From: a virus
Lineage: Duplodnaviria > Heunggongvirae > Uroviricota > Caudoviricetes
Length of the DNA stretch: 33,214 nucleotides
Virus record (IMG/VR): IMGVR_UViG_2537561930_000012
Strand: one strand, 5' to 3'
The position numbers and the translations under genes are program-made. The notes under the pieces are model-generated. The model was not told the DNA's origin. It ran no database searches and saw only the letters and a program-made list of their open reading frames with translations. This document shows positions 3,218-18,759 of the stretch, in pieces (within the stretch, counting starts at the first letter, position 1; each line of letters begins with the position of its first letter).

Positions 3218-3568
3218 ATGACTCAAAACTATGAACTGATTGTGAAAGGGATCCGCAATTTTGAGAATAAAGTTACGGTAACTTTAGCGTTACGGGACAA
3301 AAAACGCTTTGACGGTGAAATTTTTGACCTGGACATCTCGCTGGACCGTGTTGAAGGTGCCGCGCTGGAGTTTTATGAGGCAGCAGCCAGAATGAGCATC
3401 AGACAGGTCTTCCTGGATGTTGCTGCCGGGTTATGTGAAGGGGATGAGCAGTCGCCGGAAAAGCGCCCCGTAATTTTAGAGGCGCAGAATGTATGGATAA
3501 CCTACAAAGGAAAGCTACCGGGAAGAATTACTGGTTCTCTGAAGACTCCTCCGGAATCACAACCTTAA
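3218..3568 (+). CDS. DUF1327-family protein (YdfR-like) between holin and endolysin
   Basis: 116-aa ORF in the same position as ydfR in E. coli cryptic lambdoid prophages. Confidence 0.65.
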   Translation: MTQNYELIVKGIRNFENKVTVTLALRDKKRFDGEIFDLDISLDRVEGAALEFYEAAARMSIRQVFLDVAAGLCEGDEQSPEKRPVILEAQNVWITYKGKLPGRITGSLKTPPESQP

Positions 3569-6182: not shown

Positions 6183-6710
6183 ATGTCAAATGTGAGCGGG
6201 ATCGGTGATGCTTATTACTGGAGTGTTTTTAAAATCGCCGAGGCCTTTGGGCTTCACCGGGACACAGTAAAAAAACGGCTCCTCGCGGCCAACACTCCTG
6301 TGGCTGCGACTGTCAGGGGGAACCCCGTTTACGCCCTGCAGCATGTCGGGCCTGCCCTGTTTAGTGTGAAGCATGAGGCAGCAGACTCTGTTCATGATCC
6401 ATCCCGTATGGAGCCGAAAGAGAGAAAGGACTGGTACCAGTCGGAAAATGAAAGGATCAAGTTGGAAAAGGAGCAGCGAAAACTCATCCCCGTTGATGAA
6501 GTAGTCATCGTCTATTCGTCCATGAGAAAGGCTGTCGTCCAGGTTCTGGAGACAATTCCGGATGTTCTTGAACGCGATTGCGCCCTGACTCCTCAGGCCG
6601 TTGGCGTTGTACAGCAGGCCATTGATGACCTGCGATACACTCTTCAGGAAAAATCCTACGAGGCTTGTGCTGCTGAATTAATTCCTGATGAGGAAGGAGA
6701 GAGTCTCTAG
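6183..6710 (+). CDS. Terminase small subunit (Nu1-like, N-terminal HTH)
   Basis: ORF 6171-6710; ATG 6183 has better SD spacing (GGAG at 6173-6176); immediately upstream of the large terminase. Confidence 0.65.
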   Translation: MSNVSGIGDAYYWSVFKIAEAFGLHRDTVKKRLLAANTPVAATVRGNPVYALQHVGPALFSVKHEAADSVHDPSRMEPKERKDWYQSENERIKLEKEQRKLIPVDEVVIVYSSMRKAVVQVLETIPDVLERDCALTPQAVGVVQQAIDDLRYTLQEKSYEACAAELIPDEEGESL

Positions 6711-14173: not shown

Positions 14174-14184
14174 AGGAGGTGGCA

Positions 14185-14928
14185 ATGACCACACCAAATC
14201 CACTGGCAAAAACGAAAGGTGCGGGAACGACGTTCTGGATGTACACCGGCAAGGGCGATGCGTTTGCGAACCCTTTATCGGACACTGACTGGCTGCGTCT
14301 TGCGATGGTGAAGGATCTGCAACCTGGCGAAATGACCGCTGATGCAGAAGATGACACTTATCTCGATGATGAAGATGCAGACTGGAAAACGACAACCCAG
14401 GGGCAGAAATCCGTCGGTGATACTTCGGCGACGCTGGCCTGGCGTCCGGGTGACAGCGGGCAGAAAAAACTGGTTCAGTTGTTCGACTCCGGTGAAGTCT
14501 GCGCGTTTCGTATCAAATATCCCAACGGCACTGTTGATGTTTTCCGTGGCTGGCTGAGCTCACTGGGTAAAACCATTGCCTCAAAAGACGTGATGACCCG
14601 CACAGTGAAAATCAGCGGTGTGGGGCGTCCGCATCTGGCAGAGGAAGGCACTGAAACAGTGAGCGTTACCGGGCTGACGGTGGCACCAGCATCTGCCAGT
14701 GTAAAAGTGGGAGCAACCACCACGCTGACCTTTACAGTAAAACCTGACGGAGCCAGTGACAAAGCGATCAGTGTACATTCGACAGATCCACAGACTGCCA
14801 CGGTGACCCTGAACGGGCTTGTGGCCACGGTGAAAGGCGTGAAGCAGGGCAGTGTCAGCATTGTGGGCATGACTTCTGACGGCGATTTTGTGGCCGTGGC
14901 TGCGGTGGCTGTCAGCGCCGCAGGTTAA
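14185..14928 (+). CDS. V: Major tail tube protein gpV (with C-terminal Ig-like Big_2 domain)
   Basis: SD AGGAGG then ATG 14185; near-lambda sequence (KGAGTT.W.Y.G.GD..ANPLSD.DW, FPNGTVDVFRGW). Confidence 0.9.
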   Translation: MTTPNPLAKTKGAGTTFWMYTGKGDAFANPLSDTDWLRLAMVKDLQPGEMTADAEDDTYLDDEDADWKTTTQGQKSVGDTSATLAWRPGDSGQKKLVQLFDSGEVCAFRIKYPNGTVDVFRGWLSSLGKTIASKDVMTRTVKISGVGRPHLAEEGTETVSVTGLTVAPASASVKVGATTTLTFTVKPDGASDKAISVHSTDPQTATVTLNGLVATVKGVKQGSVSIVGMTSDGDFVAVAAVAVSAAG

Positions 14929-14948: not shown

Positions 14949-14972
14949 GCCCCGGTTATCCGGGGCTTTTTT
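14949..14972 (+). terminator. Intrinsic terminator/attenuator after gpV
   Basis: 7-bp GC stem gcccccgg.ttat.ccggggc followed by T6. Confidence 0.45.
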
Positions 14973-14985
14973 GCAGGTGGAGAAC

Positions 14986-15375
14986 ATGATGTTTCTGAAA
15001 CAGGGCACGTTTAATTATGAAAAACAGTCCGTGGTGCTCAGTGAGCTGTCCGGGCTGCAGAGAATTGAATATCTGGCGTTTGTTCAGCAGCGAACGGCAA
15101 AGTTTGATGCCGGGGAGGGAGAACTGCCGGAGGCTGAACGACAGATTGCTTTTCTGCGGATGGGGATGGATATCAATGCCTGGCTGGTTTCCCGCTCACT
15201 GTGGAATGCGGATCAGTCTAAGGATGTAGAGACGCTTTGCGCATCCGTTATTACAACATGGTCGTATGATGCCCTGGGTGCGGGGGCGGAGATGGTTCTG
15301 TCGCTGAGCGGTATGGGGGCCATTGATAATGCCGGGGATGATGAGCATGAGGCGCTGACGCCGGAAAAGTCCTGA
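14986..15375 (+). CDS. G: Tail assembly chaperone gpG
   Basis: Start MMFLK at 14986, after the V terminator (track ORF begins earlier at 14947); lambda G-like LSELSGLQRIEYLA. Confidence 0.8.
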   Translation: MMFLKQGTFNYEKQSVVLSELSGLQRIEYLAFVQQRTAKFDAGEGELPEAERQIAFLRMGMDINAWLVSRSLWNADQSKDVETLCASVITTWSYDALGAGAEMVLSLSGMGAIDNAGDDEHEALTPEKS

Positions 15376-15713
15376 CGCGGGAAATGCAGTTTGTCATGCG
15401 GCTTGCCCGGGAGTTCCGGCGGGCAGACTGGCGGCGGATGCTGTCGGAAATGTCGGCCACTGAGCTTGGTGAGTGGGGCGATTATTTCCGGATGCAGAGC
15501 TTCAGTGATGTGTGGATGGATGCGCAGTTTGCCTCGCTGAAGGCATTGATCGTGAGAATGGTGTCCGGCAGCAGTGATGCTGCGGTGGCTGATTTCAGCC
15601 TTTTACCGGAAGAGAACGGGATACCGGAGCGAACGGACGAAGAACTGATGCATCTTGGAGAAGGTATTTCCGGAGGTGTGCGTTATGGACCAGATAGCCA
15701 ACCTGGTCATTGA
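14986..15713 (+). CDS. T: Tail assembly chaperone gpGT, predicted product of programmed -1 ribosomal frameshift near the 3' end of G
   Basis: T-like ORF in the -1 frame is open from 15351 and overlaps the end of G; slippery-like GGAAAAG at 15363-15369. Confidence 0.55.
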
Positions 15714-18700
15714 TTTGGGGATTGATGCGGCAGAGTTTAAAAATGAAATTCCCCGTATCAAAAACCTTCTGAATGGTGCAGCCAGCGATGCAGAACGGTC
15801 TTCTGCCCGTATGCAGCGTTTTATGGAGCGTCAGACTCAGGCCGCCCGGCAGACAACGCAGGCGGCTTCTTCGGCTGCAACAGCCGCCTCCGTCCATGCG
15901 CAGACGGTGGAGAAGAACGCACAGGCTCATGAACGCATGGCCCGCGAGGTGGAGAAAACCCGCCAGCGCATGGAGGCGCTGAGCCAGAAAATGCGCGATG
16001 AACAGGCGCAGGCCATGGCTCTGGCGGAGGCTCAGGATAAAGCGGCTGCTGCGTTTTATCGTCAGATTGACAGTGTGAAACAGGCCAGTGCGGGGCTGCA
16101 GGAATTACAGCGTATTCAGCAGCAGATCCGACAGGCCAGAAACAGTGGCGGGATTGGTCAGCAGGATTATCTGGCGCTGATTTCTGAGGTTACGGCGAAA
16201 ACCCGTGTTCTTACACAGGCTGAGGAAGAGGCTACCCGACAGAAAGTGGCGTTTATCCGTCAGCTTAAAGAGCAGGCAACCCGCCAGAATCTTTCATCTT
16301 CTGAGTTGCTTCGTGCTAAGGCAGCCCAGCTGGGGGTAAGCAGTGCTGCAGAAGTGTATATCCGCAAAATGGAGCAGGCAGGAAAAGCCACGCATTCGCT
16401 GGGTCTGAAAAGTGCAGCAGCCCGCCAGGAGATAGGCGTTCTGATAGGTGAACTGGCCCGCGGCAATTTAGGGGCGCTGAGGGGATCCGGGATAACGCTG
16501 GCTAACCGTGCCGGATGGATAGACACACTGATGTCACCGAAAGGCATGATGCTTGGCGGGGTTATTGGCGGTATTGCCGCGGCCGTCTATGGTCTGGGTA
16601 AAGCCTGGTATGACGGTCAGAAGGAGGGGGAAGAATTTAACCGCCAGTTGTCGCTGACGGGGCATTATGCCGGAGTTACTGCCGGGCAGCTGTGGACGCT
16701 CAGTCGTGCTATTTCCGGGAATGGTATCACGCAACATGCTGCAGCCGGTGCGCTGGCTCAGGTGGTGGGGAGTGGTGCATTTCGTGGAAACGATATCGGT
16801 ATGGTGGCGAGAGCTGCCGCACAGATGGAGCGATCGGTTGGCCAGTCGGTCAGCGATACCATAAATCAGTTTAAGCGGCTGAAGGATGATCCTGTAAATG
16901 CCGCGAAGGCTCTGGACAATGAGCTGCATTTTCTTACTGCCACTCAGCTTGAGCAGATACGCGTCCTTGGGGAGCAGGGGCGGTCCAGTGATGCTGCACG
17001 GATAGCCATGTCTGCACTGGCAGAGGAAACCGGTCGGCGTACTGCGGATATTGATAATAACCTCAATGCGCTTGGCAGTACGCTGAAGTATCTGTCTGAT
17101 TTGTGGAGTCGTTTCTGGGATGCGGCCATGAATATTGGTCGTGAAGACTCGCTGGATGAACAGATTGCCGCTTTACAGGAGAAAGTGTCGCGGGCGAAAA
17201 GACTCCCCTGGACGGCATCATCTTCTCAGGTTGAATACGATCAGCAGCGTCTTAACGATCTTCAGGAGAAAAAACGCCAGAAGGATTTGCAGGATGCAAA
17301 AGAGCAGGCAGAGCGGAATTATCAGGAGCAACAGAAACGCCGTAATGCTGAAAATGCTGCACTGAACCGGATGAATGAAACGGAAGCAGCACGACATCAG
17401 CGTGAAATTGCGCGTATTAATGCCATGCAGTACGCCGATCAGGCTGTCAGGGATGCGGCGATACAACGTGAAAATGAACGTTACGAGAAAGCCCTGGCAT
17501 CCGGTAAGAAAAAAACACGCGAAACCCGTAATGATGAGGCCACCCGGTTATTGCTGCAGTACAGCCAGCAACAGGCACAGGTGGAAGGACAGATTGCTGC
17601 TGCAAGACAGTCAGCAGGCATTGCCACTGAAAAGATGACAGAAGCGCATAAACAGCTTCTGGCTCTGCAGCAGCGCATCAGCGATCTGGACGGGAAAAAA
17701 CTGACGGCAGATGAAAAGAGTGTGCTGGCCCGTAAAGATGAACTGATTCAGGCACTGACGCTGCTGGATGTAAAACAGCAGGAGCTTCAGAAACAGACGG
17801 CACTCAACGATCTGAAGAAAAAAACAATTCAGCTGACCAGTCAACTGGCTGAAGAAGAGCGCGCTCAGCGTCAGCAACATGACCTGGATATCGCCACGGT
17901 GGGTATGGGTGATCAGCAGCGGCAGCGATATCAGGTACAACTGAGCCTTCGCCAGAAATACCAGCAACAGCTGGAGCAGTTGAGGCGGGATAGTGAGCAG
18001 AAAGGGACATATAACACGGATGACTACAGAAAGGCCGAGCAGGCGCTGACGGAGAGCCTGAACAGGCAACTGAATGAGAATCGCCGTTACTGGCAACAGC
18101 TTGAAATTGCTCAGGGTAACTGGAAAAACGGTGCCATGCGGGCGTTTCAGAATTTCACGGCAGATGCGGATAATGCGGCAGGCACTGCGGAGCAGATGCT
18201 TACAGCGGCATTTAACAGTGCAGGTAATGCACTGGCTACATTCTGTACCACCGGAAAACTGAACTTCAAATCTTTTACCGCCTCGCTCCTTTCTGATCTG
18301 GCAAAAATCATGGCTCAGATGTCCATGATGCAGGCAGTTAAGGGGATTGGTTCGGCGTTTGGCTGGGGGAGTGCAGCAACTGCCAGTGTGACGCCCAATG
18401 CTGATGGTGGTGTTTATCAGTCTGCTGATTTGAGTCGCTACAGTGGCACGGTGGTTAACCGTCCGACGTTTTTTGCTTTTGCAAAAGGTGCAGGTGTGAT
18501 GGGGGAAGCTGGGCCTGAAGCCATTCTGCCTCTGCGTCGTGGTGCTGACGGTAAGCTGGGGGTTGTGGCGGATATTGGTGGTTCAGGTATGGCGATGTTT
18601 GCCCCGCAGTACAACATCGAGATCAATAACGATGGCACGAACGGGCAGATAGGTCCGGCTGCCCTGAAGGTGGTTTATGACCTCGGGAAAAAAGCAGCAG

Positions 18701-18759
18701 CGGACTTTATGCAACAGCAGGCCCGTGATGGTGGTCGGTTAAGTGGAGCATATCGGTAA
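15685..18759 (+). CDS. H: Tail tape measure protein gpH
   Basis: About 1024 aa from ATG 15685 (SD GGAGGTG); long coiled-coil Q/A/R-rich region; position between G/T and M. Confidence 0.9.
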   Translation: MDQIANLVIDLGIDAAEFKNEIPRIKNLLNGAASDAERSSARMQRFMERQTQAARQTTQAASSAATAASVHAQTVEKNAQAHERMAREVEKTRQRMEALSQKMRDEQAQAMALAEAQDKAAAAFYRQIDSVKQASAGLQELQRIQQQIRQARNSGGIGQQDYLALISEVTAKTRVLTQAEEEATRQKVAFIRQLKEQATRQNLSSSELLRAKAAQLGVSSAAEVYIRKMEQAGKATHSLGLKSAAARQEIGVLIGELARGNLGALRGSGITLANRAGWIDTLMSPKGMMLGGVIGGIAAAVYGLGKAWYDGQKEGEEFNRQLSLTGHYAGVTAGQLWTLSRAISGNGITQHAAAGALAQVVGSGAFRGNDIGMVARAAAQMERSVGQSVSDTINQFKRLKDDPVNAAKALDNELHFLTATQLEQIRVLGEQGRSSDAARIAMSALAEETGRRTADIDNNLNALGSTLKYLSDLWSRFWDAAMNIGREDSLDEQIAALQEKVSRAKRLPWTASSSQVEYDQQRLNDLQEKKRQKDLQDAKEQAERNYQEQQKRRNAENAALNRMNETEAARHQREIARINAMQYADQAVRDAAIQRENERYEKALASGKKKTRETRNDEATRLLLQYSQQQAQVEGQIAAARQSAGIATEKMTEAHKQLLALQQRISDLDGKKLTADEKSVLARKDELIQALTLLDVKQQELQKQTALNDLKKKTIQLTSQLAEEERAQRQQHDLDIATVGMGDQQRQRYQVQLSLRQKYQQQLEQLRRDSEQKGTYNTDDYRKAEQALTESLNRQLNENRRYWQQLEIAQGNWKNGAMRAFQNFTADADNAAGTAEQMLTAAFNSAGNALATFCTTGKLNFKSFTASLLSDLAKIMAQMSMMQAVKGIGSAFGWGSAATASVTPNADGGVYQSADLSRYSGTVVNRPTFFAFAKGAGVMGEAGPEAILPLRRGADGKLGVVADIGGSGMAMFAPQYNIEINNDGTNGQIGPAALKVVYDLGKKAAADFMQQQARDGGRLSGAYR

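What the first reader, a model, noticed from the sequence alone, without database searches (positions are those of the whole stretch)
15351..15375. G/T programmed -1 frameshift site with a non-canonical heptamer
The T-like ORF is in the -1 frame relative to G and is open from 15351, overlapping the last eight codons of G. The only slippery-like sequence there is GGAAAAG (15363-15369), not lambda's GGGAAAG. The A-site AAG-to-AAA slip is conventional, but the P-site re-pairing would be imperfect.
Basis: partly seen in the sequence, partly recalled or inferred. Interest (0 to 1): 0.4.

Follow-up and report, generated by a model that had tools for sequence, protein, structure and literature searches.

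The report
Phage tail chaperone G/T frameshift site
This is the ordinary lambda-type tail-assembly G/T ribosomal frameshift site of a common E. coli prophage; its "odd" slip sequence GGAAAAG is the commonest one among the relatives I sampled and is already annotated as a slip site in phage N15.

Summary
G (Pfam Phage_TAC_2, 14986-15375) is overlapped by a -1 frame encoding a Phage_tail_T domain. That frame is open only from 15351. The only plausible in-register slip site in the 25-nt overlap is G_GAA_AAG at 15363-15369.

The window is an mEp460/cdtI-like lambdoid phage. This G/T module occurs in 1846 of 5426 complete E. coli genomes.

I compared 54 distinct G/T junctions from phages and species-representative genomes:
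- 42 carry G_GAA_AAG at the homologous position, including N15, Gifsy-2, mEp213 and prophages of about 20 enterobacterial genera.
- 7 carry lambda's G_GGA_AAG.
- The heptamer is invariant while its flanks, six different preceding codons and the stop position all vary.
- The overlap shrinks to 16 nt in one Providencia prophage.

The N15 GenBank record already labels this heptamer a "slippery sequence for -1 translational frameshift".

No conserved downstream RNA structure was found. A GAGG lies 10 nt upstream, but only in some lineages. The ATG at 15384, which databases annotate as the T start, is not conserved.

Verdict: a real programmed -1 frameshift site of a known kind. It was not tested experimentally here. 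Low novelty.

The parts
14179..14928 (+). Major tail tube protein gene (lambda V-like, with a C-terminal Ig-like domain). It gives the upstream context that defines the chaperone position.
   Evidence: Pfam Phage_TTP_12 E 9e-67 and Big_2 E 1.9e-11. Annotated as major tail protein in mEp460.
14949..14972 (+). Hairpin followed by a T-run between V and G, annotated in relatives as a rho-independent terminator.
   Evidence: The sequence ccccggttatccggggctttttt is visible. The mEp460 record annotates a terminator at the equivalent place. N15 has a putative terminator at the same intergenic position.
14986..15375 (+). Gene G, the tail assembly chaperone and zero-frame product (129 aa, ending ...EALTPEKS*).
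   Evidence: Pfam Phage_TAC_2 E 1.8e-39. Translation.
15348..15350 (+). TGA that closes the -1 (T) frame upstream. It sets the 5' limit of where the shift can occur.
15349..15352 (+). GAGG, a Shine-Dalgarno-like tetramer ending 10 nt before the heptamer. It is a possible but unproven stimulator.
   Evidence: The same GAGG at a 10-nt spacing is present in 11 of 42 GGAAAAG contexts from several genera and absent from the rest. In dnaX an internal SD 10 nt 5' of the shift site is a stimulator (PMC5009743).
15363..15369 (+). Slip site G_GAA_AAG. tRNA-Glu on GAA (P site) and tRNA-Lys on AAG (A site) move back one base to GGA_AAA.
   Evidence: It is the only in-register site in the overlap that allows re-pairing. 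It is invariant at the homologous position in 42 of 54 distinct junction contexts. The same heptamer is annotated as the slippery sequence in N15.
15373..15375 (+). G stop codon (TGA), one codon after the heptamer. It sets the 3' limit of the shift window.
15369..15713 (+). T part of the predicted GT fusion, read in the -1 frame from GTC (Val) onwards: VLTREMQFVMRLAREFRRADWRRML...GGVRYGPDSQPGH*.
   Evidence: Pfam Phage_tail_T E 5.1e-15. It aligns from the junction Lys onwards with lambda, N15 and Gifsy-2 GT; K128, E133 and F136 are invariant.
15384..15386 (+). ATG that database records use as the start of T. It is probably an internal Met of GT.
   Evidence: Annotated as the start in mEp460 and RefSeq. 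It corresponds to a CTG/Leu or other non-start codon in 21 of the 22 other aligned relatives. The invariant Glu133 lies upstream of it.
15685..18759 (+). Tape measure protein gene (lambda H-like). Its start overlaps the end of T.
   Evidence: Pfam TMP_2 E 2.8e-49 and Tape_meas_lam_C E 9.8e-24.

Best explanation
This is the programmed -1 ribosomal frameshift site of a lambda-type tail assembly chaperone pair. Most ribosomes translate G to its stop at 15373 and make gpG.

A small fraction slips back one base when GAA (Glu) is in the P site and AAG (Lys) is in the A site:
- tRNA-Lys re-pairs perfectly with AAA.
- tRNA-Glu (anticodon 3'-CUU-5') re-pairs with GGA through G:C, a middle-position G:U wobble, and A:U.

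Translation then continues with GTC (Val) in the T frame and gives a 242-aa GT fusion, ...EALTPEK-VLTREMQF.... By analogy with lambda, the G part binds the tape measure protein and the T part recruits the tail tube protein, and a low GT:G ratio is needed.

What is shown: the gene identities, the frame geometry, and the conservation of the heptamer and its register. What is inferred: the slip itself, its efficiency (expected to be low, no higher than lambda's ~4%), and the function of the products.
For: 1. G is Phage_TAC_2 and the -1 frame is Phage_tail_T. They sit between the tail tube and tape measure genes.
2. The T frame is open for only 12 nt before the heptamer, and G stops 3 nt after it.
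3. Of 54 distinct homologous junctions, 42 have G_GAA_AAG, 7 G_GGA_AAG, 2 A_AAA_AAG, 2 G_GCA_AAA and 1 G_GGA_AAA. All are in the same register, at the same alignment column, with the junction Lys invariant.
4. In the aligned representatives of the GGAAAAG class, G identity to the best-matching reference falls to about 31% and T identity to about 50%. The flanks are variable. The stop lies at +0, +3 or +15. The overlap is only 16 nt in Providencia heimbachae (ATCACTGGAAAAGTAG), which leaves no other possible site.
5. Synonymous choices are fixed. The junction Lys codon is AAG in 51 of 54 contexts, against 39% AAG elsewhere in these genes. The junction Glu codon is GAA in 42 of 42, against 53% elsewhere.
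6. The first base of the heptamer equals the first base of the P-site codon in 54 of 54 contexts. In the GGAAAAG class six different preceding codons (CCG, GCG, CTG, ACG, GTG, TTG) all end in G, although G is only 29-57% of third positions in those codon families. This argues that P-site re-pairing is selected, not just the A_AAG tetramer.
7. N15's GenBank record labels the same heptamer 'slippery sequence for -1 translational frameshift', and Gifsy-2's record calls its T ORF part of a frameshift hybrid.
8. The literature accepts imperfect P-site re-pairing, including G_GA-type sites and A_AAG shifts (PMC5009743). G:U pairing of tRNA CUU on GGA is discussed for phage chaperone sites (PMC10885494).
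Against: - No experiment on this sequence was found or could be run.
- In a reconstituted E. coli system, AUG_GAA_AAG gave mainly zero-frame product. It was used there as the 'less slippery' sequence because of the second-position mismatch (PMC6924986).
- A_AAG alone is barely above background without a stimulator (PMC4066793).
- No conserved downstream structure exists here to compensate.
- The junction contexts are phylogenetically related, so the conservation counts overstate the number of independent events.
- The survey was seeded with one peptide pattern from the T domain, so it may not represent the whole family.
Confidence: 0.87

Rival explanations
1. T is an independent gene translated from its own ATG at 15384, as annotated in RefSeq and in the mEp460 record. 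No frameshift is needed.
For: An ATG exists at 15384, and pipelines and depositors annotate T from it. The ORF from this ATG contains the whole Pfam Phage_tail_T match, which covers residues 35-110 of the 15351 frame.
Against: - The Met is specific to the window's lineage. In the 23-sequence alignment the codon is ATG only in the window; it is CTG in 14 relatives (including Citrobacter L102) and another non-start codon in 7 (CTT in Gifsy-2 and Pluralibacter L150).
- The invariant Glu133 and the conserved block start upstream of it.
- The only purine-rich stretch (GGGAA) abuts the ATG, leaving essentially no spacer.
- This reading does not explain why all 54 junctions keep a -1 overlap with an in-register slip heptamer.
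- In lambda the T domain works only as part of GT (PMC5009743).
Confidence: 0.06
2. The shift is a single-tRNA slip of tRNA-Lys on the A_AAG tetramer, as at IS1222 G_CGA_AAG. The P-site tRNA-Glu does not re-pair in any meaningful way. The protein product is the same and only the mechanism differs.
For: A_AAG is the most shift-prone tetramer in E. coli and is used naturally (PMC4066793; PMC5009743). The GAA to GGA re-pairing has a second-position mismatch (PMC6924986).
Against: The base before the P-site codon is G in every GGAAAAG, GGGAAAG and GGCAAAA context, and A in the A_AAA_AAG contexts. So it always matches the first base of the P-site codon (54 of 54), across six different preceding codons whose third position would otherwise be free. 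That pattern is expected only if P-site re-pairing matters.
Confidence: 0.1
3. GT arises from transcriptional slippage by RNA polymerase on the A-run, not from ribosomal slippage.
For: Only that an A-run is present. Transcriptional slippage is used in some bacterial and phage genes (PMC5009743).
Against: The run is only four A residues, which is far shorter than the homopolymer runs known to cause polymerase slippage (established knowledge, not tested here). The strict codon register and the conserved G before the P-site codon are ribosomal features.
Confidence: 0.02

Closest known systems
Phage lambda G/GT -1 programmed frameshift (G_GGA_AAG)
   Same: Homologous G and T domains (36% identity over the fusion). 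Same gene order V-G-T-H. Same -1 direction, same alignment column for the junction Lys, and the same A-site AAG to AAA slip. No required downstream structure (PMC5009743).
   Different: The P-site codon is GAA (Glu) instead of GGA (Gly). Re-pairing to the -1 codon therefore has a middle-position G:U instead of full pairing. G stops one codon after the heptamer here, against five codons in lambda.
Phage N15 genes 14/15 (and mEp213/phi80-like phages, Gifsy-2, Providencia phage PSTCR8lys)
   Same: Identical heptamer GGAAAAG in the same register at the homologous junction. N15's record annotates it as the slippery sequence. Gifsy-2 shares the whole CCGGAAAAGTCCTGA junction.
   Different: The flanking codons and stop position differ: GCG...CCC with the stop at +15 in N15, and TAG directly after the heptamer in the Providencia phage. 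The proteins are 37-54% identical to the window's GT.
E. coli dnaX A_AAA_AAG frameshift
   Same: The same A-site tRNA-Lys AAG to AAA slip. An SD-like element 10 nt upstream exists in dnaX, and a GAGG sits at the same spacing here.
   Different: dnaX has full P-site re-pairing, a strong downstream stem-loop and very high efficiency. No conserved downstream structure was found here, and the GAGG is absent from most relatives.
A_AAG tetramer / NNA_AAG hexamer shifts (IS1222 G_CGA_AAG, B. subtilis cdd A_CGA_AAG)
   Same: Low-level -1 shift driven by tRNA-Lys on A_AAG with an imperfectly re-pairing P-site tRNA (PMC5009743).
   Different: Here the first and third positions of the P-site -1 codon pair normally and the second forms G:U. 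The first base is conserved, so the site behaves as a relaxed heptamer rather than a bare tetramer.
G_GA-type heptamers of eukaryotic RNA viruses (insect-specific flaviviruses, dianthoviruses, mesoniviruses)
   Same: The same X_XX = G_GA departure from three identical bases in the P-site half (PMC5009743).
   Different: Eukaryotic ribosomes, different A-site codons, and dependence on strong downstream structures.

Membership tests
Lambda-type tail assembly chaperone G/GT with -1 programmed frameshift | Upstream ORF is a gpG-type chaperone | tested here: met
   Pfam PF06894 Phage_TAC_2, E 1.8e-39, 134.9 bits against a cutoff of 27.
Lambda-type tail assembly chaperone G/GT with -1 programmed frameshift | Downstream ORF in the -1 frame encodes a gpT domain | tested here: met
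   Pfam PF06223 Phage_tail_T, E 5.1e-15, 56.1 bits against a cutoff of 25.9. The frame is -1 relative to G.
Lambda-type tail assembly chaperone G/GT with -1 programmed frameshift | The pair lies between the major tail tube gene and the tape measure gene | tested here: met
   The V-like gene is at 14179-14928 and the TMP gene at 15685-18759.
Lambda-type tail assembly chaperone G/GT with -1 programmed frameshift | A slip site lies in the short overlap, in register, at the position homologous to lambda's | tested here: met
   G_GAA_AAG aligns with lambda G_GGA_AAG, and the junction Lys is invariant.
Lambda-type tail assembly chaperone G/GT with -1 programmed frameshift | T has no conserved start codon of its own | tested here: met
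   In the 23-sequence alignment the window's ATG at 15384 is matched by non-start codons in all relatives except Sodalis L127 (TTC): CTG in 14 and another non-start codon in 7.
Lambda-type tail assembly chaperone G/GT with -1 programmed frameshift | A GT fusion protein is made at a few per cent of G and is needed for tail assembly | not testable with these tools
   Needs a reporter assay, an immunoblot or mass spectrometry. No published measurement for this heptamer in a phage context was found.
Canonical X_XXY_YYZ tandem-slippage heptamer | The first three bases are identical, so that the P-site tRNA re-pairs with only a wobble change | tested here: not met
   The first three bases are G, G, A. 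The -1 P-site codon GGA against tRNA-Glu gives a second-position G:U (sequence; PMC6924986).
Canonical X_XXY_YYZ tandem-slippage heptamer | YYY_Z allows cognate A-site re-pairing | tested here: met
   A_AAG to AAA, the best bacterial A-site motif (PMC4066793).
dnaX-type stimulated frameshift cassette | Internal Shine-Dalgarno sequence about 10 nt 5' of the shift site | tested here: inconclusive
   GAGG at 15349-15352 ends 10 nt before the heptamer. It is found in 11 of 42 GGAAAAG contexts, and it overlaps a conserved Glu codon, so coding may explain it.
dnaX-type stimulated frameshift cassette | Stable downstream stem-loop or pseudoknot 5-9 nt 3' of the shift site | tested here: not met
   The window's downstream 101 nt folds no better than shuffles (z -0.67). 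The RNAalifold consensus of 23 relatives is -1.36 kcal/mol with no covarying pair.

The most novel reading that the evidence does not exclude
G_GAA_AAG, not lambda's G_GGA_AAG, may be the prevailing and possibly ancestral slip site of lambda-type chaperones. Its deliberately weak P-site re-pairing would set a lower GT:G ratio, or one that depends more on host state.

Both slipping tRNAs (Glu and Lys) carry the mnm5s2U34 modification. Its thiolation level is already known to tune lambda G/GT frameshifting and infectivity (PMC3296357). Phages with this heptamer could therefore be more sensitive than lambda to the host's Tus/MnmA sulfur-relay state. In some lineages, including this one, they might rely on the GAGG 10 nt upstream as a compensating stimulator.
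Probability: 0.2. Interest if true: 0.45.

Novelty: already known. Interest (0 to 1): 0.2.

Why it matters
The practical importance is for annotation. This G/T module sits in about a third of complete E. coli genomes (1846 of 5426). RefSeq and most phage records annotate T as a separate gene starting at a non-conserved internal ATG, so the real GT fusion product is missing from protein databases.

There is also a modest point for frameshift biology. A heptamer that biochemists have used as a poorly slippery comparison sequence is the one natural selection keeps in most of the lambda-type tail chaperone genes sampled here. That fits the need for a very low GT:G ratio and shows that a middle-position G:U in the P site is tolerated in vivo. 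It also makes tools that search only for X_XXY_YYZ miss most members of this family.

Tried and rejected
1. Downstream stimulatory RNA structure. A single-sequence fold of 15370-15470 was no better than shuffles (z -0.67). RNAalifold on 23 diverse GGAAAAG junctions gave 4 invariant pairs, -1.36 kcal/mol and no covariation. Rejected.

2. Upstream SD-like stimulator. GAGG at a 10-nt spacing is present in the window and in 10 other distinct contexts, but absent from 31 of 42. It overlaps a conserved Glu codon. Left as inconclusive.

3. Close relatives in IMG/VR. The 80 loci were nearly identical (97-100%), so they added no independent information beyond showing the heptamer is fixed. Two loci (L004, L005) have indels that break G and look like assembly errors or decayed prophages.

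4. Literature on the heptamer in phages. Searches for GGAAAAG with 'frameshift' or 'slippery' gave nothing relevant. 'G GAA AAG' found only the in vitro EF-G study. Xu, Hendrix and Duda 2004 and Licznar 2003 are not held in the library. So I could not check whether GGAAAAG was among the experimentally confirmed sites or how GAA_AAG ranked among the NNA_AAG hexamers.

5. Other in-register heptamers in the overlap. All six were enumerated and none besides G_GAA_AAG allows A-site re-pairing.

Full report
**What is in the sequence.** The + strand between 14179 and 18759 carries a lambda-like tail gene block:
- A tail tube gene at 14179-14928 (Pfam Phage_TTP_12 plus Big_2).
- A hairpin followed by a T-run at about 14949-14972.
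- A 129-codon ORF at 14986-15375 that matches Phage_TAC_2, the lambda gpG family (E 1.8e-39).
- A reading frame open from 15351 to 15713 that matches Phage_tail_T (E 5.1e-15).
- A 1024-codon tape measure gene starting at 15685.

The T frame is -1 relative to G. It is closed by TGA at 15348-15350, and G ends with TGA at 15373-15375. Any frame change must therefore happen within GGCGCTGACGCCGGAAAAGTCCTGA. Of the six heptamers in register with G in that stretch, only G_GAA_AAG (15363-15369) allows the A-site tRNA to re-pair after a -1 move.

**Where the window comes from.** The G/T segment is 98-99.8% identical to 17 phage records: mEp460, cdtI, Tritos, Ayreon, phi458 and others. It is present at high identity in 1846 of 5426 complete E. 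coli genomes. It is therefore a very common lambdoid prophage module. In these records G and T are annotated as two separate genes, with T starting at the ATG equivalent to 15384 and no ribosomal-slippage join.

**Comparative test of the slip site.**
- I took T-domain relatives from the phage collection and read twelve diverse junctions.
- I aligned eight reconstructed GT fusions. The junction Lys is invariant, and conservation resumes immediately after it.
- I used that alignment to pull 63 loci from species-representative bacterial genomes.
- After locating the G and T frames by tblastn and removing duplicates, 54 distinct junction contexts remained.

All 54 have T in the -1 frame of G, and all have an in-register heptamer at the same place:

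| Heptamer | Distinct contexts |
|---|---|
| G_GAA_AAG | 42 |
| G_GGA_AAG (lambda and Stx-phage type) | 7 |
| A_AAA_AAG | 2 |
| G_GCA_AAA | 2 |
| G_GGA_AAA | 1 |

The GGAAAAG class includes N15, mEp213/phi80-like phages, Gifsy-2 and Providencia phage PSTCR8lys. It also includes prophages of Citrobacter, Kosakonia, Kluyvera, Leclercia, Atlantibacter, Klebsiella, Enterobacter, Trabulsiella, Phytobacter, Pluralibacter, Sodalis, Symbiopectobacterium and others. In the aligned representatives, G identity to the best-matching reference falls to about 31% and T identity to about 50%.

In a 23-sequence DNA alignment the seven bases are the only fully invariant block in the linker. The preceding codon takes six forms (CCG, GCG, CTG, ACG, GTG, TTG) and the following codon takes eight. 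The G stop lies 0, 3 or 15 nt after the heptamer. In Providencia heimbachae the whole overlap is ATCACTGGAAAAGTAG, which leaves no other possible shift site.

**Signs of selection at the nucleotide level.** Elsewhere in the same G and T genes, AAG is 39% of Lys codons and GAA is 53% of Glu codons. At the junction, Lys is AAG in 51 of 54 contexts, and Glu is GAA in all 42 contexts that have Glu.

The first base of the heptamer is more informative. It is the third position of the preceding codon, and it always equals the first base of the P-site codon (54 of 54). Yet G accounts for only 29-57% of third positions in those codon families. That is what is expected if the P-site tRNA must re-pair its first position. 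It argues for tandem slippage on a relaxed heptamer rather than a bare A_AAG tetramer slip.

These contexts are related by descent, so the counts are not independent trials. Even so, the six different preceding codons show that the G was kept through several amino-acid replacements.

**Mechanism.** The mechanism is inferred from the sequence and from established knowledge of E. coli decoding. With GAA in the P site and AAG in the A site, a one-base backward move places tRNA-Lys (anticodon mnm5s2UUU) on AAA, a better match than AAG. It places tRNA-Glu (anticodon mnm5s2UUC) on GGA, with a G:C pair at position 1, G:U at position 2 and A:U at position 3. The next codon read is GTC, which gives ...EALTPEK-VLTREMQFVMRLAREF....

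The literature describes this heptamer in exactly these terms. Peng et al. 2019 used AUG_GAA_AAG as a "less slippery" sequence because of the second-position mismatch, and they saw mainly zero-frame product with wild-type EF-G (PMC6924986). A_AAG is the most shift-prone tetramer in E. coli but is weak without a stimulator (PMC4066793). Relaxed P-site halves, including G_GA, are recognised (PMC5009743). PRFect lists a "two-four" motif class and discusses G:U pairing of tRNA CUU on GGA in phage chaperone sites (PMC10885494).

A weak site fits the biology. Lambda needs about 30 gpG per gpGT (PMC5009743). Its zero frame is kept about 96% of the time (PMC3296357).

**Stimulators.** The 101 nt after the heptamer fold no better than shuffled controls (z -0.67). 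The consensus fold of 23 relatives is essentially empty, at -1.36 kcal/mol with no covariation. So there is no conserved downstream element.

Upstream, GAGG at 15349-15352 ends 10 nt before the heptamer. That is the spacing of the internal Shine-Dalgarno stimulator of dnaX (PMC5009743). The same GAGG at 10 nt occurs in 11 of 42 GGAAAAG contexts from several genera, but not in the N15/mEp213-type majority. It also overlaps a nearly invariant Glu codon. I leave it as a possible lineage-specific enhancer, unproven.

**Rivals.**
- Independent initiation of T at ATG 15384 is what databases annotate. In the 23-sequence alignment that codon is ATG only in the window; it is CTG in 14 relatives and another non-start codon in 7. 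The invariant Glu133 lies upstream of it. It also has no usable spacer after its purine-rich stretch.
- A tetramer-only slip gives the same protein. It is disfavoured by the conserved first G.
- Transcriptional slippage on four A residues is implausible.

**Comparison with what is known, and novelty.** By every feature testable in silico, this is a member of the lambda-type G/GT frameshift family. It fails only the strict X_XXY_YYZ definition.

The same heptamer at the homologous site is already annotated as "slippery sequence for -1 translational frameshift" in the N15 GenBank record (the bases were checked). Gifsy-2, whose junction is identical over CCGGAAAAGTCCTGA, is annotated as a frameshift hybrid. 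The finding is therefore already known in kind.

Two things are perhaps under-appreciated. GGAAAAG is the majority form among the relatives sampled, and lambda's textbook heptamer is the minority. And current genome annotation of this very common prophage module omits the fusion.

I could not access Xu et al. 2004 or Licznar et al. 2003. So I cannot say whether a GGAAAAG site has been confirmed experimentally.

**Verdict.** This is a real, conserved, ordinary programmed -1 frameshift site. Interest is low. The slip itself and its efficiency remain untested.

Noticed in passing
window 14949-14972: A GC-rich hairpin followed by a T-run sits between the tail tube gene and G. It is annotated as a rho-independent terminator in mEp460 and Ayreon. 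N15 has a putative terminator at the same intergenic spot. It may lower transcription of G-T-H relative to the abundant tube protein.
   Followed up: partly
L103 (Kluyvera genomosp. 1) and L105 (Ewingella americana), G/T junction: Two prophages have G_GCA_AAA directly followed by TAG at the homologous junction. This P-site half is even less canonical (GCA to GGC), the A-site codon is AAA rather than AAG, and the zero-frame stop follows immediately.
   Followed up: no
L087, L119, L149 (Providencia phage and prophages) and L133: In the Providencia lineage the G stop codon TAG follows the heptamer directly (G_GAA_AAG_TAG, or G_GGA_AAA_TAG in L133). Slow termination could therefore contribute to the shift. 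The overlap is as short as 16 nt.
   Followed up: no
L135-L141, L143-L147, L154-L157 (genome-contig hits): Junctions 100% identical to phage lambda turn up in 'representative genomes' of unrelated organisms: Pseudomonas, Kitasatospora, Chromatium, Oceanobacillus, Shewanella, Leeuwenhoekiella, Enterococcus and others. They are often on low-coverage or contigs of about 48.5 kb. This looks like lambda control-DNA contamination of the assemblies.
   Followed up: no
window 15384-15713, and RefSeq and phage records (L001, L158): RefSeq (PGAP), mEp460 and cdtI annotate T as a stand-alone 109-aa protein from a non-conserved internal ATG. Ayreon, mEp213 and Flotzy start T even further inside the domain. 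The GT fusion is not represented in these records.
   Followed up: yes
window 15685-15713: The tape measure gene's ATG (15685) lies 29 nt inside the end of the T frame. GT termination and H initiation therefore overlap, as in the relatives.
   Followed up: no
window 3457-3463 and 6464-6470: Two more GGAAAAG copies are in register with long open + strand frames. They lead into only 37- and 8-codon -1 extensions, so they look like chance occurrences.
   Followed up: partly
L004 and L005 (IMG/VR contigs): Two otherwise close relatives (85% and 72% best-segment identity to the query) have indels that truncate G before the junction. They are either assembly errors or decaying prophages.
   Followed up: no
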